Below, one piece after another: positions 1,462 through 12,227 of a stretch of 12,227 nt of DNA. This DNA is from a virus (taxonomy: Duplodnaviria; Heunggongvirae; Uroviricota; Caudoviricetes). The stretch's first letter is position 1, and each line of letters starts with the position of its first letter. Position numbers and translations under genes: made by a program. The stretch lies in the IMG/VR virus record IMGVR_UViG_2671180903_000014, positions 1 to 12,227 of that record; one strand, 5' to 3'. The notes below the pieces were generated by a model. That model had not been told where the DNA came from. It worked only from the letters and a program-made list of their open reading frames with translations, and ran no database searches.

Positions 1462-1972
1462 ATATGTCCTTTTATCACCACAGCAAGGCAACCAATTGAT
1501 TTAATTAAACAACTCACACTGCAAAAAGTGCTAAAAACAGCAAATTGACTACACCATTAACTACACCGTTCGGTGCACTGTATGAAACAACGTTGAACAA
1601 ATAGACACAAGAAATATACAGGCGGGTAATCTTTCCAGGGGGAAGCGCACCAATTCATGAGGGGCGTTAATGTCGATATGGGGATCCCCATAACGGGGCT
1701 ACCAGATTTTTTTTCCGGTTAACTGTTAATCAGGCTGGTGGGCTTTACCTGTTCGGTAGGTGTTATGATTATCGTAATACCTTTCCCCCAATGGGGTAAA
1801 AGCTCCAACCGTAACGATGTTCGTTATGGTTGCCTTGATGGTCTGAGTGGTCATTTTGACCATTCAGCCAATGACCTTAATCAGAATTTTTCGCTAAAAA
1901 ATGACGTTGGCCACGTCATCCGGAAAGCACAAAATCACGTCGATTTTTAATGAACGGTTAAACCGTCTTTTT

Positions 1973-2007
1973 GTCACGGTGTGTCACTGGTTGTCACTCT
2001 CCGTCAC
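1973..2007. repeat. Four direct copies of (T)GTCAC spaced exactly 10 bp apart
   Basis: GTCAC at 1973, 1983, 1993 and 2003, in non-coding DNA downstream of phoQ; resembles tandem arm-type recombinase sites (lambda Int arm consensus contains AGTCAC) or another phased binding array. Confidence 0.6.
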
Positions 2008-2096
2008 GATTGAGGTGGTGGACATTCTGCCCGACCGCGCATTTTTGCGCTATCGGGAATATCAAACAGTTACCGCGCCGACTTCCTCAAATTGAG

Positions 2097-2239
2097 GTTT
2101 CCGAAAATATCAGCGGGTTAGCGATTAAGCTGACGAGTAATTAAACTGCGAAAATTTCGTAGTTTGTGACTATCTGAAAGATAGTCGGTTGTTCCGGCCT
2201 CAGCCGTTGGCTGTTTCCGAAAATATCAGTAGGTTAGGC
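2097..2239. repeat. Pair of ~26-bp direct repeats (GTTTCCGAAAATATCAG..GGTTAG) 115 bp apart
   Basis: 2097-2124 and 2212-2239 differ at 2-3 positions; palindromes lie between them (GACTATCT-gaa-AGATAGTC at 2169-2187; CCAAAGCTCA-aaaa-TGAGCTTTGG at 2240-2263). Confidence 0.6.
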
Positions 2240-2277
2240 CAAAGCTCAAAAATGAGCTTTGGAACAATATCAACAAG

Positions 2278-2559
2278 TTACCGCCGTAACCGCTCCGGCT
2301 TCTTCCAGTGGTACGTAATTTTCTCCGTTTCCCGATACAGTGCCACGCGGCGATTGTAGGCCAGCATTTCAAGAACGCGGATCCGTATGTTGCGCATATC
2401 CACATCATTAAGCTGGATACCATCACGGCGCATCACCTCAGCAACAACACGCGCATAATTTTCGGCTGTCACGCTGTCCGGCTGCGTGGCCTGTTCGTCA
2501 GTCTGCTGGCTGATTCCACCAGCACGGCGGATTAATCCCAGTATTTCGGCTTCTGTCAT
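2278..2559 (-). CDS. Hypothetical 93-aa protein
   Basis: ATG at 2559 with upstream GGGTG; charged, protein-like composition; the overlapping plus-strand ORF looks like antisense. No family recognised. Confidence 0.4.
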   Translation of the reverse strand: MTEAEILGLIRRAGGISQQTDEQATQPDSVTAENYARVVAEVMRRDGIQLNDVDMRNIRIRVLEMLAYNRRVALYRETEKITYHWKKPERLRR

Positions 2560-2592: not shown

Positions 2593-2795
2593 CGGGTCCT
2601 TCCTGGAATTATGGACCCGTTACGGGGCGGCGACCTCGCGGTTTTTATCTGTTTATGAAAATTTTCCGGCAAAAGTCAGATCCGTTCTTCTTCTCTGTAA
2701 CAGACTGTTTAACAATGAAAATATTAAAAAAAGAAAGGATCTGACACGAGGCATTTTAGCCAGAAAATGCCATTATCAGATCCTTTCTCATTTTT
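2593..2795 (+). other. Lambda-type cos site 'cos-A' (cosQ, cosN, cosB) in plus orientation
   Basis: GGGTCCTTCC..GTTACG|GGGCGGCGACCT|CGCGGTTTTT..TTATGAAAATTTTCCGG..CCGTTCTTCTTC closely follows the lambda right-end/left-end junction as recalled; the 12-nt cohesive-end sequence is at 2625-2636. Three R-site-like repeats GATCC(G/T)TTCT follow (2681-2695 plus, 2730-2745 inverted, 2777-2789 plus), with an A/T-rich IHF-like stretch between the first two. Confidence 0.8.
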
Positions 2796-2815
2796 GTTCA
2801 ATAATTGCGCGTCTG

Positions 2816-3358
2816 TTACTCGCCTTTCTTCTGTAGCAACTTTTCCGGTACGTTTCCGGTTGTTTCTTTCAAGTAATCAGCCAGTATCTGTGGGAGGTTG
2901 TCGGCAACTCTGGCACTGGCATTACAGGCTTTAACCACTTCCCTTTTAAGCCTATCCAGCATGGCGGGGGTAATCTGTGGGAAGCTCCTTTGCATAGTAA
3001 GCGGGAGGCTGTCCATGATTGATGAAATCTGACTCGCCAGCTTTGAAAGCGCGTACAGGCAAAACTCAGTATCAATCACGTCACCGCGATCGCGCTCGTT
3101 TTTAAGTTCCTGCGCCTCCGCCTGTGCTGTCAGTAATCTGATCCTGACTCGTAAGAGTTCATCATCATCAATATCGCCTTTGTCGTTTGTAAGCTGGCTA
3201 ATTGCATTGTTAACCCTATTGTCTATCACGCTGGCAACATCATAAAACGCCTCACGGCCTTTACGTTCAACGGGAGTCACTCCCCACTTGTCGAACGCTG
3301 TCGCACTTACACGGCAGCTTTTCGCCATGTTTTTTTTGTTCATCAGGTGCGATTTCAT
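2816..3358 (-). CDS. Terminase small subunit, lambda Nu1-like
   Basis: Residues LLTAQAEAQELKNERDRGDVIDTEFCLYALSKLASQISSIMDSLPLTMQRSFP align with lambda Nu1 (LTRAQADAQELKNARDSAEVVETAFCTFVLSRIAGEIASILDGLPLSVQRRFP); N-terminus NKK..W..G..PV matches the Nu1 DNA-binding region. Start may be ATG 3358 or ATG 3343. Confidence 0.85.
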   Translation of the reverse strand: MKSHLMNKKNMAKSCRVSATAFDKWGVTPVERKGREAFYDVASVIDNRVNNAISQLTNDKGDIDDDELLRVRIRLLTAQAEAQELKNERDRGDVIDTEFCLYALSKLASQISSIMDSLPLTMQRSFPQITPAMLDRLKREVVKACNASARVADNLPQILADYLKETTGNVPEKLLQKKGE

Positions 3359-3399
3359 TAATACACCAACTTAATTACTGCTTCAGGTTGGTGTATTGT

Positions 3400-3534
3400 T
3401 TGCATCTTTCCCTTTTTATTCATAAAGATAGATCAAACAACGAAACCACCACCCCCCCCCTGAAAAGGCTCATAAATAGCGAAAAACCGCTAGGTCGCCG
3501 CCCCGTAACGGGCCATAATTCCAGGAAGGACCCG
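3400..3534 (-). other. Second lambda-type cos site 'cos-B' (cosQ, cosN, degenerate cosB) in minus orientation
   Basis: Minus strand reads GGGTCCTTCCTGGAATTATGGCCCGTTACG|GGGCGGCGACCT|AGCGGTTTTTCGCTATTTATGA and then diverges, including a G9 run; cohesive-end sequence at 3492-3503. The 53-bp stretch 3482-3534 is an inverted repeat of 2593-2646 with one mismatch and one 1-bp indel. Confidence 0.75.
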
Positions 3535-3535
3535 T

Positions 3536-3557
3536 AAAAAAGCCGGATTTCTCCGGC
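3536..3557 (-). terminator. Rho-independent terminator after the 137-aa gene
   Basis: Minus strand GCCGGAGAAATCCGGC hairpin followed by TTTTTT; 6 bp past the stop of the 137-aa ORF. Confidence 0.7.
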
Positions 3558-3563
3558 CTTGTC

Positions 3564-3977
3564 TCAGATGGTTTTCAGTATGCGATCGATGTCGCCGTCA
3601 TCGCCCTGGTTTCTGCCATCGTATGCCATGCCAGCTGATACGGCTTGCGGGCTGTGCATGTCCATAAAGTTTTCAAAGGCTGCGGTAAGTTCCGGCGCAA
3701 CCTTCGGACGTTCCTGCTCTATGGTCATGCTAAGGATGCTTTTAGCCGTACCAACATCGATACAAGGCACGTTTGCCATTGCACGCAACAGCGGCTGATA
3801 GTCTTTATGCTCATGAAGCGCCATAATCGCATCAGCGCGCGGCTTGTCCTGCTCTTCCAGTTTGTTTAGTTGATATACGGCCTCATAGGTTGATAAACCT
3901 CTGTCAGCCATTGCCCGCGCTTCGACTTTAAATTTACTCGCCAGCGGTAGCGTCATGATGCTTTCATTCGTTGCCAT
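3564..3977 (-). CDS. Hypothetical 137-aa acidic protein, last gene of the capsid operon
   Basis: Strong RBS (AGGGGGA) before ATG 3977; 12 bp after the gpD-like stop; followed by a terminator. No family recognised; not lambda FI or W by recalled sequence. Confidence 0.55.
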   Translation of the reverse strand: MATNESIMTLPLASKFKVEARAMADRGLSTYEAVYQLNKLEEQDKPRADAIMALHEHKDYQPLLRAMANVPCIDVGTAKSILSMTIEQERPKVAPELTAAFENFMDMHSPQAVSAGMAYDGRNQGDDGDIDRILKTI

Positions 3978-3989
3978 CGTTCCCCCTGC

Positions 3990-4325
3990 TTATCGGGCCA
4001 GCGGCTGAACGGATACGCCGGAACCCGCAAAGGCGGCGCATTTTTTCGCATCGGTGTCGACGCTCTCAGGCCAGTTAACGGCGGCAATATTGAATATCCC
4101 CGTCTTGTAACACTGTGCTGATTTCTGCTTTGACGTGCCCACAGGGTACGAGGTCAGATAAACAGCCTTGCCAGATTCCTGACCATCCCACGGCTTAAAC
4201 TCGCCATTGTCTGCCAGCATCAGCGGGGTAAATTCCTGAATAACGCCAGCATCAGCGGCAAAATGTACCAACGTCGTGGATACCTGCTGACTGCCTGCAA
4301 ATAACTCAATGTATGGAGTGTCCAT
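3990..4325 (-). CDS. Head decoration protein, lambda gpD family
   Basis: 111 aa; TPLML, WDG, YKTGIF, WPE and AFAG motifs align with lambda gpD (TPLML..WDG..YKSGTF..WPE..AFAG); RBS GGGGGGA. Confidence 0.85.
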   Translation of the reverse strand: MDTPYIELFAGSQQVSTTLVHFAADAGVIQEFTPLMLADNGEFKPWDGQESGKAVYLTSYPVGTSKQKSAQCYKTGIFNIAAVNWPESVDTDAKKCAAFAGSGVSVQPLAR

Positions 4326-4337
4326 AGAATCCCCCCG

Positions 4338-5393
4338 TTAACCAATTTTGACGGTAACAAATTTGCGAATATCTGCCGGTACCGGCTGCGGTGCACTGTG
4401 TGTCTGCACGTACTCAATCGCCGGATCGCCGTCCTCAATCCAGTTTTTCGGGTAAAACATGTTTTGTGTTGCGCCCGTTCTTACCGCTTCCTGATCCATT
4501 ATCGCACCATAGGCCACCAGCCCTTTATTGTTGGTGTTACCCAGGACCAGCAAATCAGGCTCAAGGAAATATTTTTCGGTACCATCGCTGTCAGTGTATT
4601 TGCCGGAATAGACGATAAGGGCCAGATCACCAAGATAGCCTTTAAAGCTCACCACTTCGCCCAGGTTTTTACAGGCCAGTTCGGCGGCGGATTCTGAACC
4701 ACGGGAAAGATCGTACAGCTCACGGAATTTTTTAAAGCTGCCTAATGTGCGCCATACCTCAGCGCCCATAATCATGACGTTTGCGGGGCAACCAGCCTGA
4801 TCAGCATAAAGCTCGATGTCATAGATTGGGTCGTGCATGTCTTTATCCTGCTCGGACCATTTTTTACCCTTGGCCTGCTCTATGATGCAGTTTTCCGGTA
4901 TTTTCCAGTCGATTTCATAGCGTTCTATGCCTTCGCCCTCAATGATGTTTTTTCCGGTCGTTACCGCATTCACCGCCAGCCATTCCACGCGTGCCTTAAT
5001 GGCGTTTATCTGGCGGCGCATGTTGCCAGTAATCAGGCGCATACGGCGATAGGTAGGGTCGTTAAGCTGTGCCGGATCTTCTCCAGCCATGCGCATGATG
5101 GTTTTCGTTGGATCGATTTCGTGCTTTGGCTTCATGTAGCCAGGTTTGATTGTGCTGGTTTCGTACCCTTTATCGCGCTGAACCTGGCTACCCACCATAG
5201 GCGAACAAAACGCCGACATGGTGACTTCTTCAATGTCCAGGGTATCCAGCATGATGTTTTGCGTGCTGAATGTCGCCACGTTCGGGAAAAACAGCGTGGT
5301 AAACAGAGGGCTGAATTTAAAATCCGCAATATCCCCGCGATTCAGGTACATGAAAAGCTGGTTAGTGTTAAGTGCCGTTGCTTTGCCTGCCAT
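4338..5393 (-). CDS. Major capsid protein, lambda gpE family
   Basis: 351 aa; collinear with lambda gpE (FKF.PLF..LFF, PGY.KPKHE, DP.YRR.R, RDK..DP..DIE.YA, YKG..GD.A.VYSG, VLGNT, YPKNW, GDPA.E); RBS GGGGGTGA. Confidence 0.9.
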   Translation of the reverse strand: MAGKATALNTNQLFMYLNRGDIADFKFSPLFTTLFFPNVATFSTQNIMLDTLDIEEVTMSAFCSPMVGSQVQRDKGYETSTIKPGYMKPKHEIDPTKTIMRMAGEDPAQLNDPTYRRMRLITGNMRRQINAIKARVEWLAVNAVTTGKNIIEGEGIERYEIDWKIPENCIIEQAKGKKWSEQDKDMHDPIYDIELYADQAGCPANVMIMGAEVWRTLGSFKKFRELYDLSRGSESAAELACKNLGEVVSFKGYLGDLALIVYSGKYTDSDGTEKYFLEPDLLVLGNTNNKGLVAYGAIMDQEAVRTGATQNMFYPKNWIEDGDPAIEYVQTHSAPQPVPADIRKFVTVKIG

Positions 5394-6201: not shown

Positions 6202-6474
6202 TTAGCTGTCCTGGTAATTGCGCCATATTTCATCACCAGCACCATCTATACCCATTTCGGCATAAGTGCGATCGACTGCCTTTTTCAGGTCTCCGAAATT
6301 ATCCGGCGGCTCCGGTGCCCTCTGTGCCTTCCTTGAACATTCCAGCCGTCGCATCGTGATGTGATGCCGTTCCTTGTCTGTCTCCACCAGCTGCATGACT
6401 TCACCCCATCGCGCCGCCGCCCTCCGGTAAAAGCCTTTCGCCTCCAGTTCCTCCGCTATGCGGTCATGTACCAT
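6202..6474 (-). CDS. Small PerC-family-like regulator (about 90 aa)
   Basis: Start taken at ATG 6474 (MVHDRIAEELEAKGFYRRAAARWGEVM), 11 nt after the SSB stop with GGGGGTG as RBS; the A..LE..G.YRRAA.RW motif resembles PerC-family proteins from memory. The longer 130-aa ORF call would overlap SSB. Confidence 0.45.
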   Translation of the reverse strand: MVHDRIAEELEAKGFYRRAAARWGEVMQLVETDKERHHITMRRLECSRKAQRAPEPPDNFGDLKKAVDRTYAEMGIDGAGDEIWRNYQDS

Positions 6475-6484
6475 CGTCACCCCC

Positions 6485-6895
6485 TCAGAACGAAATATCA
6501 TCACCGTAAGAGTCATCGCCTCCCGCTGGTGGCTGATTACCCTGTGTGCCTGTGGTTTTGCGTCTGTTCCCGCCTGGACGTGCCGCGCGGGCACTGATTA
6601 CGCTGTCTGCGATAACCTGCCAGCCCTGCCGCGTTTCTCCGTTCTGTCCGGTCCACTGGCTTACCTGCATCGTGCCGGATACGCTGGCAACATCGCCTTT
6701 TTGATGTTTAGCCAGGAAGTCGGCCTGTTTGCCAAATGCGATGACCGATAACCATAACGTCGCCTGTCCGTCCTGTGCCTGGCTGCATGGCAAAGATACC
6801 GCCATACGCGCCAGCGTCATCGGTGTGCCCTTGCTGGTCTGTTTTACCTGCGGGTCGTCCACCAGCCGCCCGTAAGCGGCTATCTGTGCCGTCAT
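6485..6895 (-). CDS. Single-stranded DNA-binding protein, SSB-like
   Basis: 136 aa; OB-fold-like N-terminal region, Gly/Pro/Gln-rich linker and acidic C-terminal tip GDDISF (compare E. coli SSB DDDIPF). Confidence 0.65.
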   Translation of the reverse strand: MTAQIAAYGRLVDDPQVKQTSKGTPMTLARMAVSLPCSQAQDGQATLWLSVIAFGKQADFLAKHQKGDVASVSGTMQVSQWTGQNGETRQGWQVIADSVISARAARPGGNRRKTTGTQGNQPPAGGDDSYGDDISF

Positions 6896-7149: not shown

Positions 7150-7350
7150 CAACCTCTCACTTTTTCGCCTCACTTTTTCAAGCGTCTCACTTCGTCGCAG
7201 TTGGGATTTTCGGTTTTTCTATGTGTGTGTTTCATAAGTATTTTTTTACCCCTCACTTTTGAGGATGTATACAGGTCGAAAAGTGAGGGAGAGCGGGCTA
7301 ATTTTGGCCCTCTTTCTATCCCCCTCGCTTTTGCTCCTCACTTTTATAGC
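7150..7350. repeat. Iteron array with a central A/T-rich stretch; candidate replication origin
   Basis: Seven copies of CCTCAC(T/G)TTT (7156, 7169, 7186, 7250, 7323, 7337 direct; 7279 inverted) flanking an A/T-rich stretch at 7201-7248, immediately 3' of the rep gene. Confidence 0.6.
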
Positions 7351-8743
7351 GGCGCTACATCATCCCCATCGATACGAATAACCCCATCTTTTTCCAGCTT
7401 GTACAGCCAGCGCCGGAAGTTTTTCATTTCATACCCCAGCTTTTTCATGTCATCACGTAACAGCGGGATCGTGCACTTGTCGCCGTTCTGTGTGCGTGAA
7501 CGGATGCACCCCCATAGCGCGGTATGGTTTTCCGTCTTGTTCCCTGCCTCCTCGATGCGCTCCAGTTCAACAGGAGGGCGCGGATCATCCACCACCACCA
7601 GCGACGTGATTAATTCACCGTCAGCGTCGGTAAAAAGCTCCACCACGCGTAAGTCATATGCGGCTTCTTTGAGTTCCTCCGCGTCCTTCATTTTGGTGCA
7701 TGAGATAACCAGCGCTTCGCTTCCTGCGTCCTCCCTGCGTATCCGGTATTCAGCATCCAGCGAAGCACGAAATGCACTGGAACCGCGCGCGCCTTTCGTC
7801 TCATCCTTGCCGGAATGGTGAACCACCAGCACCGTGGCCCCTGTGCGTCGTTTCAGTTCGTCACAACCACGGATAAACGCCCCATATCACGGGAATCATT
7901 TTCATCATTCCCACCAAAGCAACGCGCCAGCGTATCCAGAATAATCATGCGTACAGGTTTACCCGTTTCCCGCTCCACCTGACGGGCAGCGATAACCATT
8001 TCATCAACATCAAGCGGGGCAGCCGGAAAGATGGGGCGGTTTACCAGATACAGATTTTTCACCTGCTCATCGTGCACAACCTCCCAGGCTTTTACACGAC
8101 GCGGAACACCTATACCGCCTTCACCAACCACATAGAGAACCGCACCATGTGCAACCCTGCGGCCTCCCCACTGGCGACCAGTGGCAACATGGCACGCCCA
8201 CGATCCGGCAAGGAATGATTTATAGGACCCGCTAGCCCCGTATATGCTGCATAGCGATACCGCCGGAATAATCCCCTTAACCACGTAATCCAGTTGCGTG
8301 TCGTATCCGGTAGATCCAACGCTCATCGGTAGCGTGGTTTTTCGCTGGTGGTTTTTTTCTTCCGCCGGCTCTTTCCCGCGCACCCGTTCCAGGTATTCGC
8401 GCCAGTTCTCCCGCATATGGCTGTGCATCCCTTCGGGGTAATAATTCGCATCAGTTACACCCGCCGCCGCCAGCTTGTGCGCAATGGCATTAATATTTGA
8501 TGGCCTGATGTGGCCTGCCTTGTACAGCCGGACACAATAGCGCCCCTCGTCGATGATTCTCAGGTCTGCCAGTTCATCCAGTTGATCATCAGCCAGCACA
8601 ACGGGAGGCACATTATCGCCAGCCAGTCGCCCGTCCTGTTCCTGCCACTGTTTCGCATGTGCCCAGGCATCACTACCCGCAAAAATAATGACTTCGGTCA
8701 TCTTGTCGTAAGGCTGTTTTTTTAAGTTCGGTGCGCTTTTCAT
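7344..8743 (-). pseudogene. RepA-like AAA ATPase (RecA-fold replication helicase) split by a frameshift
   Basis: The upstream ORF (8743-7853) ends ..ILDTLARCFGGNDENDSRDMG; the downstream ORF continues in another frame with AFIRGCDELKRRTGATVLVVHHSGKDETKG. Joined, they give the typical DEN..M......L....G..VL.VHH..K motif. The frames meet in the C4/G4 run at 7880-7883; one extra G would restore a ~470-aa protein. Confidence 0.75.
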
Positions 8744-8761
8744 TTCTTGCCCCTGAATCCG

Positions 8762-9208
8762 TTAAAATCTGGCCTGAACTGCCGGAGGCGTAGGCCATTC
8801 AATATCTGGCGCACTGGAGGTATCAACCAGCTCCAGTGCATCCAGATAATCCAGCCACAAATTATATTGCGCCAGTTCCTCACCTTTCAGACGACCAATA
8901 GCGGCTTTACCGGGCCATTGCTTACTGTTCATGTATTCGTTGGCCTGGTTAATTAGTAGCTGTCTTTCTGATTCAGTAATTTCAATAAGCTCTTCATGCG
9001 TGGGTGGAGGAATATCTGCCCACGCAGGCAGCCCATCATCTCCGGCAATACGGATTTTTCCTTGTGGCGGTTCAGCCATAAACTCACTGATAATATTTTG
9101 ATTTACTTCCTTAGCGTCTGATAAATCCCATCCCTCTGATTTATATTTATCAATCATATCCACAGGGAAAAAAGCATTATGCCTTGCGCTATAAACATAT
9201 TCGTTCAT
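8762..9208 (-). CDS. Tail fibre assembly protein (Tfa)
   Basis: N-terminus MNEYVYSARHNAFFP and C-terminus ..VDTSSAPDIEWPTPP match Tfa proteins (lambda Tfa ends ..VDTSTAPDIEWP); RBS AGGGTGA before ATG 9208. The longest ORF starts at a GTG (9217). Confidence 0.85.
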   Translation of the reverse strand: MNEYVYSARHNAFFPVDMIDKYKSEGWDLSDAKEVNQNIISEFMAEPPQGKIRIAGDDGLPAWADIPPPTHEELIEITESERQLLINQANEYMNSKQWPGKAAIGRLKGEELAQYNLWLDYLDALELVDTSSAPDIEWPTPPAVQARF

Positions 9209-9228
9209 ATAAATCACCCTGAATAAAA

Positions 9229-9642
9229 TTACTCACCAACAGCCCACCAACTGTAATTCATCGATACCGTGTCGCTGGTTGATGACGTTCTGTAAGCAGA
9301 ATTAAAGCCGGTTAACGTTGGGCCTTCTGCAGTCATCACGAACCCTCGCCCAGCGCCTAAAGGCGCACCGCCATCACCAGAATGAGTAAGCATGGCGCAG
9401 TCCGCTTTTTTGGGGAAAGGGATGCTGAATGTAATTCTCATTGTTTGCGTCGATAATGTCGGCGTAACCGCACCACGACCATATTGCAGGATTTTCCCGT
9501 TGGGTAATTTCATCCATCCATCACCACTGGCAAAAGAGGCCATGTCCGGTATCTGATTTTCCCCTGTCCCCACATCCCGTTTTGCCGCTTCTCCCAAACC
9601 AACGTTTATGAAAATGCAGAAATAACGAGCAAATGGCATCAT
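9229..9642 (-). pseudogene. Tail-fibre C-terminal variable segment without its constant N-terminal part (alternate cassette of an invertible segment)
   Basis: Lies between the crossover site and tfa, reading away from pin, as for the alternate Sv' cassette of the Mu G segment and the e14 P segment; no tail-fibre N-terminal domain upstream. Confidence 0.5.
9589..9614. other. Candidate Pin crossover site (pix-like)
   Basis: TTCTCCCAAACCAACGTTTATGAAAA matches the recalled hixL site TTCTTGAAAACCAAGGTTTTTGATAA at 20 of 26 positions; sits just upstream of pin inside the tail-fibre fragment. Confidence 0.55.
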
Positions 9643-9668
9643 TCCTGCTTTTGTCAGGGGGATCTACC

Positions 9669-10223
9669 ATGCTTATTGGCTATGTACGCGTATCAACAAA
9701 TGACCAGAACACAGATCTACAACGTAATGCGCTGAACTGTGCAGGATGCGAGCTGATTTTTGAAGACAAGATAAGCGGTACAAAGTCCGAAAGGCCGGGA
9801 CTGAAAAAACTGCTCAGGACATTATCGGCAGGTGACACGCTGGTGGTCTGGAAACTGGACCGGCTGGGGCGCAGTATGCGGCATCTTGTCGTGCTGGTGG
9901 AGGAGTTGCGCGAACGAGGCATCAACTTTCGTAGTCTGACGGATTCAATTGATACCAGTACCCCAATGGGGCGCTTTTTCTTTCATGTGATGGGTGCCCT
10001 GGCTGAAATGGAGCGTGAACTGATTGTTGAAAGAACAAAAGCTGGACTGGAAGCTGCTCGCGCACAGGGACGAATTGGTGGACGTCGTCCCAAACTTACA
10101 CCAGAACAATGGGAACAGGCCGGACGATTAATTGCATCAGGAGTTCCTCGCCAGAAGGTGGCGATTATCTATGATGTTGGTGTGTCAACTTTGTATAAGA
10201 GGTTTCCTGCAGGGGATAAATAA
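9669..10223 (+). CDS. pin: Serine DNA invertase Pin (Hin/Gin/Cin family)
   Basis: MLIGYVRVSTNDQNTDLQRNAL..VVWKLDRLGRS..GINFRSLTDSIDTS.PMGRFFFHVMGALAEMERELI..GRIGGR with C-terminal HTH; RBS AGGGGGA before ATG 9669. The listed ORF start at 9633 is an upstream extension. Confidence 0.92.
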   Translation: MLIGYVRVSTNDQNTDLQRNALNCAGCELIFEDKISGTKSERPGLKKLLRTLSAGDTLVVWKLDRLGRSMRHLVVLVEELRERGINFRSLTDSIDTSTPMGRFFFHVMGALAEMERELIVERTKAGLEAARAQGRIGGRRPKLTPEQWEQAGRLIASGVPRQKVAIIYDVGVSTLYKRFPAGDK

Positions 10224-10329: not shown

Positions 10330-11163
10330 ATGCATGTTTTTGATAATAATGGAATTGAACTGAAAGCTGAGTGTTCGATAGGTGAAGAGGATGGTGTTTA
10401 TGGTCTAATCCTTGAGTCGTGGGGGCCGGGTGACAGAAACAAAGATTACAATATCGCTCTTGATTATATCATTGAACGGTTGGTTGATTCTGGTGTATCC
10501 CAAGTCGTAGTATATCTGGCGTCATCATCAGTCAGAAAACATATGCATTCTTTGGATGAAAGAAAAATCCATCCTGGTGAATATTTTACTTTGATTGGTA
10601 ATAGCCCCCGCGAGATACGCTTGAAGATGTGTGGTTATCAGGCTTATTTTAGTCGTACGGGGAGAAAGGAAATTCCTTCCGGCAATAGAACGAAACGAAT
10701 ATTGATAAATGTTCCAGGTATTTATAGTGACAGTTTTTGGGCGTCTATAATACGTGGAGAACTATCAGAGCTTTCACAGCCTACAGATGATGAATCGCTT
10801 CTGAATATGAGGGTTAGTAAATTAATTAAGAAAACGTTGGGTCAACCCGAGGGCTCCAGGAAACCAGTTGAGGTAGAAAGACTACAAAAAGTTTATGTCC
10901 GAGACCCGATGGTAAAAGCTTGGATTTTACAGCAAAGTAAAGGTATATGTGAAAACTGTGGTAAAAATGCTCCGTTTTATTTAAATGATGGAAACCCATA
11001 TTTGGAAGTGCATCATGTAATTCCCCTGTCTTCAGGTGGTGCTGATACAACAGATAACTGTGTTGCCCTTTGTCCGAATTGTCATAGAGAATTGCACTAT
11101 AGTAAAAATGCAAAAGAACTAATCGAGATGCTTTACGTTAATATAAACCGATTACAGAAATAA
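10330..11163 (+). CDS. mcrA: Type IV modification-dependent restriction endonuclease McrA (HNH)
   Basis: 277 aa; matches e14 McrA from memory, with C-terminal HNH motif HHVIPLSSGG..NCVALCPNCH; A/T-rich context typical of acquired DNA. Confidence 0.92.
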   Translation: MHVFDNNGIELKAECSIGEEDGVYGLILESWGPGDRNKDYNIALDYIIERLVDSGVSQVVVYLASSSVRKHMHSLDERKIHPGEYFTLIGNSPREIRLKMCGYQAYFSRTGRKEIPSGNRTKRILINVPGIYSDSFWASIIRGELSELSQPTDDESLLNMRVSKLIKKTLGQPEGSRKPVEVERLQKVYVRDPMVKAWILQQSKGICENCGKNAPFYLNDGNPYLEVHHVIPLSSGGADTTDNCVALCPNCHRELHYSKNAKELIEMLYVNINRLQK

Positions 11164-11822: not shown

Positions 11823-12227
11823 CTAGATTAATGGTTTATTATTTTCTACATCTTCAATATATAAAAGCGTATTATCAATGGCGTAGTAACTGCGTTTGTT
11901 ATGATTAACATCAGTAACCCACCGGAAAACGCCAGCGCCTGCCAGTGTTGAACAGTATTCCCGAAATGTAGATTTTCCGCGAATATGAAGCAATGCGGCC
12001 TCTTTTATTTTAGCTGGGTTCTTGGTCGTACTAACTTTTAACAGGTTCCTGGTTCCTCTTAATAACAAAACCGTGTCATCGTGAGTAATAATTCTGATGT
12101 TATCCGTAGCCAGATAATAAATGTAATGTGCAATACGGTGATGTTTTAATTCTGAATAAAACCAGGAGAAGTTTTGCTCTTTTCTCACTTGCTCAAACAT
12201 CTTTTGAAAAACAACGACCTGATCCAT
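11823..12227 (-). CDS. DUF1398-family protein (YcgX/YbcV/YdfO-like)
   Basis: 134 aa; C-terminal AGVFRWVTD..YYAIDNTLLYIE resembles the prophage-flanking DUF1398 family from memory. Position next to icdC fits K-12 ycgX, but iraM is not seen between them. Confidence 0.55.
   Translation of the reverse strand: MDQVVVFQKMFEQVRKEQNFSWFYSELKHHRIAHYIYYLATDNIRIITHDDTVLLLRGTRNLLKVSTTKNPAKIKEAALLHIRGKSTFREYCSTLAGAGVFRWVTDVNHNKRSYYAIDNTLLYIEDVENNKPLI

What the first reader, a model, noticed from the sequence alone, without database searches (positions are those of the whole stretch)
2593..3534. Two lambda-type cos sites in inverted orientation bracket the small terminase gene
A 53-54 bp inverted repeat (2593-2646 and 3482-3534) carries cosQ-like sequence plus the 12-nt lambda cohesive-end sequence GGGCGGCGACCT on each arm. 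cos-A continues into a full cosB but faces the 3' end of terS; cos-B sits upstream of terS as in lambda but has a degenerate cosB. Lambdoid genomes carry a single cos. Two inverted copies 0.9 kb apart could direct packaging in opposite directions (rightward into the element, leftward towards phoQ) or make the terS cassette invertible by recombination between the arms.
Basis: partly seen in the sequence, partly recalled or inferred. Interest (0 to 1): 0.85.

Follow-up and report, generated by a model that had tools for sequence, protein, structure and literature searches.

The report
Satellite island's two inverted cos sites
The two back-to-back lambda-type DNA-packaging sites are real, but they belong to a known family of phage-parasitising islands in which two cos sites were already shown to work. 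What looks new is that the segment between them occurs in both orientations in nature, and that the second site carries interchangeable phage-type recognition modules.

Summary
Arms 2593-2669 (+) and 3534-3459 (-) are about 77-nt inverted copies of lambda-type cosQ-cosN, each with GGGCGGCGACCT, and they flank a 180-aa Nu1-family gene.

The element is not a lambdoid phage. It is an EcCICFT073-family phage-inducible chromosomal island (PICI) at the roxA/phoQ site. Fillol-Salom et al. (2018, 2019) showed that this family carries two functional cos sites. Arm B corresponds to published cos1 and arm A to cos2. So the core finding is already known.

This island differs in two ways. An N15-gp1-like full-length TerS replaces Rpp. 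Arm A carries a complete lambda-architecture cosB (R3-I1-R2-R1) of a "GATCC" class.

A survey of 56 related loci added three points:
- The gene-proximal cosB tracks the gene type without exception.
- The distal cosB is one of four phage-type classes that assort independently of the gene.
- The cassette occurs in both orientations in nature. The exchange maps to 25 bp centred on cosN. Counts were 484 versus 5 genomes for this type and about 1:1 for gene-less cassettes.

I found no description of the orientation or the flipping in the papers I could search. The 2019 paper lists "why two cos sites?" as an open question.

The parts
2278..2559 (-). 93-aa conserved island gene (phrog_1561), the last gene of the island before phoQ; it flanks arm A
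   Evidence: the same gene follows cos2 in EcCICFT073 and CB9615
2593..2669 (+). Arm A, equivalent to published cos2: cosQ-like 2593-2624, cosN 2625-2636 (GGGCGGCGACCT), conserved post-cosN segment 2637-2669
   Evidence: mapped to cos2 using the Fig. S1A sequences of PMC6739421 and CFT073 DNA
2675..2789 (+). Complex lambda-architecture cosB of arm A: R3 2675-2693 (GTCAGATCCGTTCTTCTTC), IHF-like site 2714-2726, R2 2731-2745 (AAGAAAGGATCTGAC, inverted), R1 2776-2789 (TCAGATCCTTTCTC)
   Evidence: inverted repeats I3 and I4; alignment to lambda, PhiR5_1 and SerU-LTIIb; IHF-like match with 1 mismatch
2816..3358 (-). Island terS: a full-length Nu1-family small terminase (180-aa ORF; the probable start is M6 at 3343, giving 175 aa). 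The N-terminal DNA-binding domain is N15-gp1-like and the C-terminal half is lambdoid.
   Evidence: Pfam PF07471, 83 bits; phrog_57; 46% identity to N15 gp1 and 35-36% to lambda Nu1 over 90% of its length; residues 1-60 are 55% identical to N15 gp1 and residues 61-175 are 61% identical to PhiR5_1 TerS; no similarity to RppA; median dN/dS 0.175
3359..3458 (-). Gene-proximal (island-type) cosB region of arm B: G9 tract 3452-3460, conserved TTYGTTGTTTGATC 3431-3445, and a hairpin at 3362-3399 just upstream of terS
   Evidence: this type is found with all 26 TerS-type cassettes; resemblance to N15 R3 GAGGTTGTTGTTTAATC; hairpin -14.5 kcal/mol, z -3.3
3459..3534 (-). Arm B, equivalent to published cos1: cosQ-like 3534-3504, cosN 3503-3492, conserved post-cosN segment 3491-3459; co-oriented with terS
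   Evidence: mapped to cos1
3536..3557 (-). Intrinsic-terminator-like hairpin (GCCGGA-GAAA-TCCGGC followed by U6) between the 137-aa gene and arm B
   Evidence: fold -18 kcal/mol, z -4.5, 0 of 200 shuffles as good; conserved in all site-1 flanks; not listed by the consensus scan
3564..5393 (-). Neighbouring island morphogenesis genes: 137-aa gene (3564-3977), head-decoration homolog (3990-4325), major-capsid homolog (4338-5393)
   Evidence: Pfam HDPD and Phage_cap_E; phrogs; same order in EcCICFT073

Best explanation
**What it is.** Window 2593-3534 is the packaging module of an EcCICFT073-family, O-island-51-type phage-inducible chromosomal island inserted between roxA and phoQ. In this genome the island's integrase-proximal half has been lost. 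The module consists of two convergent lambda-type cos sites around an island-encoded small terminase.

**Arm B (position of published cos1).** I propose that arm B is the island's own packaging site: cosQ-cosN followed by a simple, N15-like cosB, directly upstream of and co-oriented with terS. The island TerS has an N15-type DNA-binding domain. Its C-terminal half is lambdoid and aligns through the region that in lambda Nu1 binds TerL. I infer that it binds arm B and recruits the helper phage's TerL to nick cosN. In that case this island does with one full-length TerS what EcCICFT073 does with Rpp plus the helper's TerS.

**Arm A (position of published cos2).** Arm A is a complete phage-type cos (cosQ-cosN-R3-IHF-R2-R1) of a different specificity class, 'GATCC'. 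It is one of several interchangeable phage-type modules found at this position in the family. I infer that it lets terminases of a matching helper class package the island directly.

**Why inverted.** Packaging runs from cosN towards cosB, and termination needs cosQ-cosN met in the same orientation. The two sites therefore drive packaging in opposite directions and cannot terminate each other. The cassette is then not excised the way it would be between directly repeated cos sites. Exchange at the two cosN sites inverts it instead.

**Shown here.** The anatomy, the homology to cos1/cos2, the covariation between gene and proximal cosB, the natural inversions with their exchange interval, and purifying selection on terS.

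**Taken from the literature.** Both sites work in EcCICFT073.

**Inferred.** Which protein reads which site in this island, and how the inversion occurs.
For: - **Family and site.** The gene order is that of EcCICFT073 at the same roxA/phoQ site. CFT073 has cosN at 15559 (+) and 16298 (-) flanking rppA.
- **Published function.** cos1 is essential and RppA-dependent. Deleting cos2 raises transfer by lambda and phi80. Deleting both abolishes transfer. The Fig. S1A sequences fix which site is which.
- **The gene.** It belongs to the Nu1 family. It is 46% identical to N15 gp1 and is a mosaic of an N15-like DNA-binding domain and a lambdoid C-terminal half aligned to the end of Nu1. dN/dS is 0.175.
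- **Survey of 56 paired-cos loci.**
  - cosN is exact at both sites in 48 of them.
  - The proximal cosB matches the gene type in all cases: Rpp with ACCACCACC in 20/20, TerS with G-run+TTYGTTG in 26/26.
  - The distal cosB falls into four phage-type classes (21, 21-like, N15/Monarch, GATCC) that assort independently of the gene.
  - The TerS DNA-binding domain is identical whether the distal class is GATCC or 21.
  - Single-cos relatives keep only the proximal site.
- **Distal sites look like phage cos.** They have the R3/R2(inverted)/R1 layout and are 71% identical over cosB to SerU-LTIIb (GATCC class) or to PhiR5_1 and the CFT073 prophage (21 class).
- **Inversions.** Window 2593-3534 is inverted in L009 and L010 with collinear flanks. 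Gene-less cassettes that are 99.1-100% identical occur in both orientations, 4 versus 5. cosQ-side variants stay with the flanks and cosB-side variants move. Flank haplotypes are intermixed between orientations. Both junctions occur in closed genomes, 28 and 31.
Against: - No experiment exists for a TerS-type island. Binding of the island TerS to arm B is inferred from position and from a partial resemblance to N15 R3. At N15's R3 position (bp 48-59) 8 of 12 bases match, and the best-conserved motif is shifted by 9 bp. No rR2-like second site was found in terS.
- The G/(GGT) tract in arm B varies in length between relatives, which is odd for a spacing-sensitive site.
- Phage modules with a GATCC-type cosB plus the matching TerS are rare (38 of 5,426 genomes). 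None is evident in CB9615, which carries this island type. A matching helper for arm A is therefore not demonstrated.
- In EcCICFT073, deleting cos2 increased transfer by lambda and phi80, so the second site can be a cost with non-matching helpers.
- In this window the island is truncated (no int; helicase gene split), so the module may no longer be used at all here.
Confidence: 0.6

Rival explanations
1. Arm A, with its complete R3-I1-R2-R1 cosB, is the true target of the island TerS, and arm B is a decayed or purely regulatory copy.
For: Arm A has the full lambda architecture. Arm B has no obvious R repeats and no rR2-like site.
Against: The same TerS DNA-binding-domain sequence occurs with two different distal cosB classes, GATCC and 21, so protein and distal site do not co-vary. 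The proximal cosB type tracks the gene in 26/26 and 20/20 loci. Single-cos relatives keep only the proximal site. In EcCICFT073 the proximal site is the essential one. The N15-type DNA-binding domain is expected to read GTT/GGT-rich R3 sequences, not CAGATCC.
Confidence: 0.1
2. The second cos is a functionless scar of recombination with helper phages at cos. It is carried along and occasionally swapped, and the inversions are neutral by-products of ordinary (RecA or phage Red) recombination between the arms.
For: The distal modules are mosaic and exchangeable. Deleting cos2 increases EcCICFT073 transfer. Some relatives lack the second site. Gene conversion between arms is visible: Q2-type cosQ on both arms in the window and CB9615, and chimeric bp 17-18 in L064. 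Rad52-like phage recombinases recombine diverged short homologies (PMC3945230; title and abstract only, seen in the listing).
Against: cosN is exact at both sites in 48 of 56 loci, and the distal site keeps an intact three-R architecture in every class. The paired layout is present in hundreds of closed genomes. The cos2 plasmid is transferable and the double deletion is worse than deleting cos1 alone. Flips recur although only 25 bp of perfect identity is available in most islands.
Confidence: 0.25
3. The cassette is a programmed invertible segment driven by a dedicated site-specific invertase, for example the Pin invertase encoded at 9633-10223.
For: A Pin-family invertase gene and a pix-like site (9588-9613) lie 6 kb away in this window.
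Against: The window has only one match to the invertase crossover core (AAACCNNGGTTT, allowing 1 mismatch), at 9596, and it lies outside the arms. Pin is adjacent only because of a lineage-specific rearrangement; intact islands L092, L093, CB9615 and CFT073 have no invertase nearby. Flipped islands sit at yejO, mdtJ and clpS sites with no such gene in the 6-9 kb flanks fetched.
Confidence: 0.02
4. One arm, or the inverted forms, are assembly artefacts.
For: Short inverted repeats can confuse assemblers. Several viral-collection contigs end near the arms.
Against: Both arms and both orientations occur in complete RefSeq chromosomes. The arms are shorter than typical read lengths.
Confidence: 0.01

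Closest known systems
EcCICFT073 cos1 / cos2 with RppA (Fillol-Salom et al. 2018 ISME J, PMC6092414; 2019 Mol Cell, PMC6739421)
   Same: The chromosomal site (roxA/phoQ), the island gene order and the flanking genes (137-aa and 93-aa) are the same. Both have two lambda-type cosQ-cosN sites in inverted orientation around one small gene with a winged-helix DNA-binding domain. Arm B corresponds to cos1 and arm A to cos2.
   Different: The gene is a 180-aa full-length Nu1/N15-gp1-type TerS with a C-terminal half like lambdoid TerS, not the 144-aa Rpp (no detectable similarity). The proximal cosB is G-run+TTYGTTG rather than ACCACCACC. The distal cosB is GATCC-type rather than CATGTCCGG-type. Function has not been tested for this variant.
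Bacteriophage lambda cos (cosQ-cosN-cosB with R3, I1, R2, R1)
   Same: Arm A has the same 12-nt cohesive-end sequence, the cosQ core, the same spacing, and R3/R2(inverted)/R1 at lambda-like positions. It is 80% identical to lambda over the first 100 nt.
   Different: The R-element core is CAGATCC rather than CGTTTCC. The site faces the 3' end of terS instead of preceding it. A second, inverted cos lies 0.87 kb away. The host element is a satellite, not a phage.
Phage N15 simple cosB, and the Monarch-type complex cosB of the same specificity (Feiss et al. 2015, PMC4669245)
   Same: The island TerS DNA-binding domain is 55% identical to that of N15 gp1, with a similar recognition helix (SATAFDKWG vs SVQAFDKWG). 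Arm B, like N15, lacks I1/R2/R1 and has a G/T-rich element near the R3 position. True Monarch-type triple GGTTGTTGT sites occur at the distal or short-cassette sites of relatives.
   Different: Arm B is not identical to R3-N15. No rR2 was found. cosN is lambda's, not N15's (N15 differs at bp 9 and 12).
SaPI-encoded TerS (pac SaPIs) and cos SaPIs (SaPIbov5; SaPIbov4 with two putative cos sites)
   Same: A satellite encodes its own small terminase to redirect the helper's large terminase, or carries helper-type cos sites. PMC6092414 says SaPIbov4 has two putative cos sites.
   Different: Those are Gram-positive elements with unrelated sequences. The SaPI TerS works with pac/headful packaging. 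No inverted pair around terS is described for them in the texts I read.
Serine-invertase switches (Hin/Gin/Cin/Pin)
   Same: A short DNA segment bounded by inverted repeats is found in both orientations in natural populations.
   Different: There is no invertase gene in the islands and no crossover-site consensus in the arms. The exchange point coincides with a terminase nicking site.

Membership tests
lambda-type cos site | 12-nt cohesive-end sequence (cosN) matching the lambda group | tested here: met
   GGGCGGCGACCT is exact in both arms. It is exact at both sites in 48 of 56 related loci.
lambda-type cos site | Conserved cosQ upstream of cosN at lambda spacing | tested here: met
   CGGGTCCTT...CCCGTTACG lies upstream of cosN in both arms and aligns with lambda cosQ. 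It matches the cosQ given in Fig. S1A of PMC6739421.
lambda-type cos site | Complex cosB: R3, IHF site, inverted R2 and R1 downstream of cosN | tested here: met
   Met for arm A: R3 2675-2693, R2 2731-2745 (inverted), R1 2776-2789. The IHF-like site has 1 mismatch. Not met for arm B, which has a simple cosB.
lambda-type cos site | Staggered nicking by terminase and use as packaging start and end | not testable with these tools
   Shown experimentally only for the homologous sites of EcCICFT073.
Gram-negative PICI, EcCICFT073 family | About 11-kb island at a dedicated att site with int, alpA-type regulator, pri/rep, capsid homologs and cos, and no tail or lysis genes | tested here: met
   Intact relatives with identical proteins have the full set (L092, L093; CB9615). 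The site and gene order match EcCICFT073. The window copy itself lacks int, alpA and everything beyond 8765.
Gram-negative PICI, EcCICFT073 family | Helper-phage-dependent induction, packaging and transfer | not testable with these tools
   Published for EcCICFT073 only.
Rpp (redirecting phage packaging) proteins | 139-154-aa protein homologous to RppA/B/C, lacking the TerS C-terminal TerL-binding region | tested here: not met
   BLASTP against RppA gives E = 1.4. The window protein has 175-180 aa and aligns to the C-terminal end of lambda Nu1 and PhiR5_1 TerS.
Nu1-family small terminase (TerS) | Pfam Phage_Nu1 match above the curated threshold, full length including the C-terminal domain | tested here: met
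   PF07471, 83 bits against a cut-off of 30. 89-90% coverage against N15 gp1 and lambda Nu1. dN/dS 0.175.
N15-type simple cosB | A single R3 at bp 48-59 (GAGGTTGTTGTT) plus an inverted rR2 about 200 bp away inside the terS gene | tested here: inconclusive
   Arm B bp 48-59 is GGGGGTGGTGGT (8/12). The motif GTTGTTTGATC resembles N15 GTTGTTTAATC but lies 9 bp further from cosN. No inverted copy was found in terS.
Serine-invertase (Pin/Hin/Gin) invertible segment | 26-bp crossover sites with an AAACCNNGGTTT core at the segment ends, and an adjacent invertase | tested here: not met
   The only core-like match in the window is at 9596-9607, outside the arms. Related islands, including flipped ones, have no invertase gene in the flanks fetched.

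The most novel reading that the evidence does not exclude
The paired inverted cos sites form a recombinase-independent invertible element driven by the packaging enzyme itself. If helper terminase nicks both cosN sites, the inner fragment is released with two identical 'left' cohesive ends, and the outer DNA carries two 'right' ends. The fragment can then re-anneal and be ligated in either orientation. The same hybrid junctions would arise if island molecules packaged from the two different sites joined end to end. Each helper induction could in this way flip which cosB specificity points along the island's direction of transcription. The specificities swapped are island-specific versus phage-type or, in gene-less cassettes, 21-like versus N15-like. 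That would act as a switch of helper range and packaging polarity. It would also answer the question left open in 2019 of why these islands keep two cos sites.
Probability: 0.2. Interest if true: 0.8.

Novelty: new variant of a known kind. Interest (0 to 1): 0.5.

Why it matters
The two-cos arrangement is the packaging signal that lets a widespread family of E. coli pathogenicity-associated satellites exploit lambda-like phages. According to the 2018 paper, such islands in O157:H7 carry RgdR- and PerC-type virulence regulators, and this window's island encodes a PerC homolog.

The authors who discovered the two sites left their purpose as an open question. The comparative data here turn it into testable hypotheses:
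- One site is tied to the island's own specificity protein (Rpp or a full TerS).
- The other is a swappable phage-type cos in at least four specificity classes, including a 21-like R3/R2 pair in EcCICFT073 cos2 that was reported as lacking a cosB.
- The segment between them flips at cosN.

If terminase itself causes the flip, it would be a new way of inverting DNA. Either way, the inverted layout explains how a satellite can carry two cos sites without terminase deleting the DNA between them.

For this particular window the practical verdict is modest. It is a truncated copy of a known island type.

Tried and rejected
- **RppA homology.** I tested whether the 180-aa gene is an Rpp. It is not (BLASTP E 1.4).
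- **Solved structures.** A sequence search gave no meaningful hit.
- **Remote rR2 site.** I looked for an N15-like remote rR2 site inside terS and found none.
- **Pin-driven inversion.** I rejected this because the arms contain no crossover core and other islands have no invertase nearby.
- **Matching resident helper.** I looked for a resident prophage with GATCC-type cosB and SerU-like TerS. Such modules are rare (38 of 5,426 genomes) and none is evident in CB9615, so co-residence does not support the helper-mimic idea.
- **Promoter/terminator scan.** It gave nothing above shuffle expectation and missed the clear hairpin after the 137-aa gene, which I then folded directly.
- **Generic cos regex.** A first regex for finding cos sites failed outright. 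I replaced it with a BLAST of the arm.
- **Literature on orientation or inversion.** Searches for any description of orientation or inversion of PICI cos sites found nothing.
- **Recombination mechanism.** I could not separate homologous recombination from cohesive-end rejoining. Both predict exchange inside the 25-bp identical block around cosN.
Full report
**1. The observation**

The inverted repeat is real and slightly longer than reported.
- The repeat finder gives arms 2593-2617/3510-3534 (96%) and 2616-2669/3459-3512 (85%). Together they make one arm of about 77 nt with a single 1-nt indel.
- GGGCGGCGACCT occurs at 2625-2636 (+) and 3492-3503 (-). About 0.04 matches (allowing one mismatch) are expected per window.
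- Arm A matches the lambda cos region at 80% over window 2593-2693, in 99 phage records.
- A multiple alignment with lambda, PhiR5_1, SerU-LTIIb and the two CFT073 sites shows cosQ and cosN in both arms. In arm A it also shows R3 (2675-2693), inverted R2 (2731-2745) and R1 (2776-2789) at lambda-like positions.
- Between the arms, on the - strand, lies a 180-aa ORF that matches Pfam Phage_Nu1 (83 bits, cut-off 30).

**2. Context**

- Position 1-1461 is phoQ.
- Downstream, on the - strand, are a 93-aa gene, the cos/terS module, a 137-aa gene, head-decoration and major-capsid homologs, PerC, SSB and a RepA-type helicase.
- In O55:H7 CB9615 the same genes form an island of about 11 kb between phoQ and roxA, ending in an AlpA-like regulator and a tyrosine integrase. 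Both cos arms are conserved there.
- CFT073 has the same layout at the same site. That island is EcCICFT073, the model Gram-negative phage-inducible chromosomal island (PICI).

**3. What is already known**

- Fillol-Salom et al. 2018 reported that EcCICFT073 carries two cosN sequences. Each cloned site makes a plasmid transferable by lambda and phi80. Deleting cos1 strongly reduces island transfer, deleting cos2 increases it, and deleting both abolishes it.
- The 2019 paper showed that the island protein RppA (c1503) binds the helper's TerS and redirects it to the cosB of cos1. [quoted passage not shown]".
- The Fig. S1A sequences, compared with CFT073 DNA, show that cos1 lies just upstream of rppA and is co-oriented with it. 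cos2 lies beyond rppA in inverted orientation next to the 93-aa gene.
- Window arm B therefore corresponds to cos1 and arm A to cos2.
- Searches of both papers' main texts and of Murialdo & Feiss (2022) for orientation and inversion terms found nothing about the relative orientation of the two sites. Further literature searches found nothing on it either.

**4. How this island differs**

- The gene is not an Rpp. BLASTP against RppA gives E = 1.4.
- It is a full-length small terminase: 46% identical to N15 gp1 and 35-36% to lambda Nu1 over about 90% of its length.
- It is a mosaic. Residues 1-60 are 55% identical to the N15 gp1 DNA-binding domain. Residues 61-175 are 61% identical to the TerS of lambdoid phage PhiR5_1, and they align through the C-terminal region that in lambda Nu1 binds the large subunit (the role of that region is stated in PMC9026076).
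- It is under purifying selection, with median dN/dS 0.175 over 248 pairs.
- Arm A's R elements have the core CAGATCC rather than lambda's CGTTTCC. The same set occurs in phage SerU-LTIIb, which is 71% identical over cosB.
- Arm B has no R2 or R1. It has a G9 tract followed by TTCGTTGTTTGATC, which recalls N15's single R3 (GAGGTTGTTGTTTAATC). The match at N15's exact position is only 8 of 12 bases, and no remote rR2 was found.

**5. Survey of relatives**

I used the 137-aa neighbour gene as an anchor and fetched 80 loci from the viral-contig collection. I analysed them together with the window, CB9615, CFT073 and two closed genomes. Fifty-six loci have a paired, inverted cosN with discrete spacings.

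| Cassette | Spacing | Count |
|---|---|---|
| N15-like TerS | about 878 bp | 26 |
| RppA/B | 750-770 bp | 20 |
| About 536 bp, no intact gene | about 536 bp | 9 |
| Other (637 bp; related to the gene-less cassette) | about 637 bp | 1 |

- The gene-proximal cosB tracks the gene type in every locus: ACCACCACC with Rpp (20/20) and G-run+TTYGTTG with TerS (26/26).
- The distal cosB is one of four phage-type classes: 21 (CRTGTCGG), 21-like (CATGTCCGG), N15/Monarch (GGTTGTTGTTTAAT) and GATCC. These assort independently of the gene type.
- Distal sites of the 21, N15/Monarch and GATCC classes have R3/R2(inverted)/R1. EcCICFT073 cos2 (21-like class) has R3 and an inverted R2 at the positions seen in the 21-type prophage next to icd in CFT073, but its third repeat is oriented like R2. 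The original authors reported no recognisable cosB in it.
- The TerS DNA-binding domain is the same whether the distal class is GATCC or 21.
- Relatives with a single cos keep only the proximal one.
- cosN is exact at both sites in 48 of the 56 loci.

Together these results argue that the proximal site belongs to the island's own specificity protein. The distal site looks like a modular, phage-derived cos.

**6. Inversion**

- I built the junction that an inversion between the arms would create and searched all complete E. coli genomes. It occurs at full length in 5 genomes. The native junction occurs in 484.
- In two of the five (L009 near yejO, L010 near mdtJ), window 2593-3534 aligns in reverse at 94% and 90% identity. 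Both flanks remain collinear and the alignments overlap on the arms.
- In the gene-less cassette class, inner segments 99.1-100% identical occur in both orientations, 4 versus 5.
- cosQ-side differences stay with the flanks and cosB-side differences travel with the segment. This places the exchange inside the 25-bp block CCCGTTACG-GGGCGGCGACCT-CGCG.
- Flank haplotypes are intermixed between orientations, so there were several independent events.
- Both junction types occur in closed genomes, 28 and 31. They include islands at the same clpS-adjacent site in opposite states.
- The strong bias for gene-containing cassettes (484:5; 20:0 for Rpp) against about 1:1 for gene-less ones suggests that selection acts on orientation when a gene, or the island-specific site, is involved. 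This is an inference.

**7. Mechanism**

- Established lambda biology, as summarised in PMC6739421 and PMC4669245, says that packaging starts at cosN-cosB and proceeds towards cosB. Termination needs cosQ-cosN met in the same orientation.
- The two sites must therefore package in opposite directions and cannot terminate each other.
- From my own knowledge of lambda derivatives with duplicated cos sites, two directly repeated sites would let terminase delete or duplicate the intervening DNA. Inverted sites avoid this and can only invert it.
- The flip can be explained in two ways. One is recombination within the short identical block, by RecA or by the helper's Red functions, possibly stimulated by the break at cosN. 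The other is cohesive-end rejoining: cutting both sites leaves an inner fragment with two identical left-type ends that can religate either way.
- The data cannot separate these two explanations. Arm homogenisation in the window and CB9615, and a chimeric arm in L064, show that some ordinary gene conversion also occurs.

**8. Caveats**

- No TerS-type island has been tested experimentally.
- The assignment of arm B to the island TerS rests on position, covariation and a partial N15 resemblance.
- The G/(GGT) tract in arm B varies in length between relatives.
- Phage modules of the GATCC class are rare (38 of 5,426 genomes) and are not evident in CB9615.
- The window's copy is a remnant. It ends at 8765 and is fused to the right end of an e14-like prophage, and its helicase gene is split. 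Here the sites may do nothing, or may merely be cut in situ by a helper's terminase.

**9. Verdict**

The element is a member of a known family whose two cos sites are published and functional. The parts that look new are the TerS-for-Rpp substitution with its own proximal cosB, the modular phage-type distal cosB classes, and the natural flipping of the cassette at cosN. I rate this a new variant of a known kind, of moderate interest.

Noticed in passing
window 8743-9642 (junction at 8765/8766): The island stops just upstream of the helicase start. It is joined to e14-like tfaE (8762-9217), a stfE fragment (9229-9642), pin (9633-10223), mcrA (10330-11163) and ycgX (11823-12227). No complete E. 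coli genome holds more than 69% of the window. The same breakpoint occurs at 99.99% identity in GCA_001283345.2, where an N and then the pix-like site TTCTCCCAAACCAACGTTTATGAAAA (window 9588-9613) follow. The gene orientations fit a chromosomal inversion of roughly 30 kb between the island and the e14 invertible region.
   Followed up: partly
window 7344-8743: The RepA-type helicase gene is split into 296-aa and 162-aa ORFs, whereas CB9615 has one 466-aa gene. The same split is present in otherwise intact islands (L092, L093), so this lineage may be replication-defective.
   Followed up: partly
window 1875-2284: There are about 190 extra bases relative to CB9615. Two direct repeats (25 nt at 2097 and 2213; 19 nt at 2058 and 2266) lie in the intergenic region between phoQ and the island's last gene. 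This may be a leftover of a second integration event at the att site.
   Followed up: no
window 3446-3460: The C9 (G9 on the cos strand) tract and adjoining GGT repeats, between cosN of arm B and the conserved TTYGTTGTTTGATC motif, vary in length among relatives (G3 to G11, or (GGT)4). This looks slippage-prone, and it changes the spacing in a region where cosN-to-R3 distance is critical in lambda.
   Followed up: partly
window arm B bp 44-58 vs L003 (CFT073) cos1 bp 55-63: The proximal site of Rpp-type islands has ACCACCACC, which lies within the 18-bp segment (bp 48-65) that Murialdo & Feiss propose as R3-PICI; they note bp 55-63 are identical in four PICIs. TerS-type islands have its reverse complement, (GGT)n, at about the same distance from cosN. 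This is unexplained.
   Followed up: no
L003 16120-16309 (EcCICFT073 cos2) vs L002 34745-34930: EcCICFT073 cos2 has an R3 (CCATGTCCGG) and an inverted R2 (CCGGACATG) at the same positions as the 21-type cos of the CFT073 prophage next to icd (CGTGTCGG / CCGACATG / CATGTCGG). The original papers stated that no phage cosB could be identified.
   Followed up: partly
window 3362-3399 and 3536-3557: There is an 11-bp-stem hairpin immediately upstream of the terS start (-14.5 kcal/mol, z -3.3). A strong terminator-like hairpin followed by U6 lies between the 137-aa gene and arm B (-18 kcal/mol, z -4.5). The latter suggests that terS is not simply read through from the capsid operon.
   Followed up: partly
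L067, L070, L071, L080, L089, L090 (first 120 nt after the 137-aa gene): Some related islands carry a variant cohesive-end sequence, GGGCGGGAGCGG, in place of GGGCGGCGACCT, followed by a 21-like R3. This suggests adaptation to helpers with a different cosN.
   Followed up: no
L045, L020 and relatives (site with GGTTGTTGTTTAAT): These sites have three GGTTGTTGT repeats in R3/R2(inverted)/R1 layout. That matches the description of the Monarch-type complex cosB of N15 specificity, here carried by satellites rather than phages.
   Followed up: partly
window 6202-6594: The island encodes a PerC-family regulator (Pfam PF06069, E 1e-42). According to PMC6092414, some PICI-encoded PerC homologs activate the LEE pathogenicity island.
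   Followed up: no
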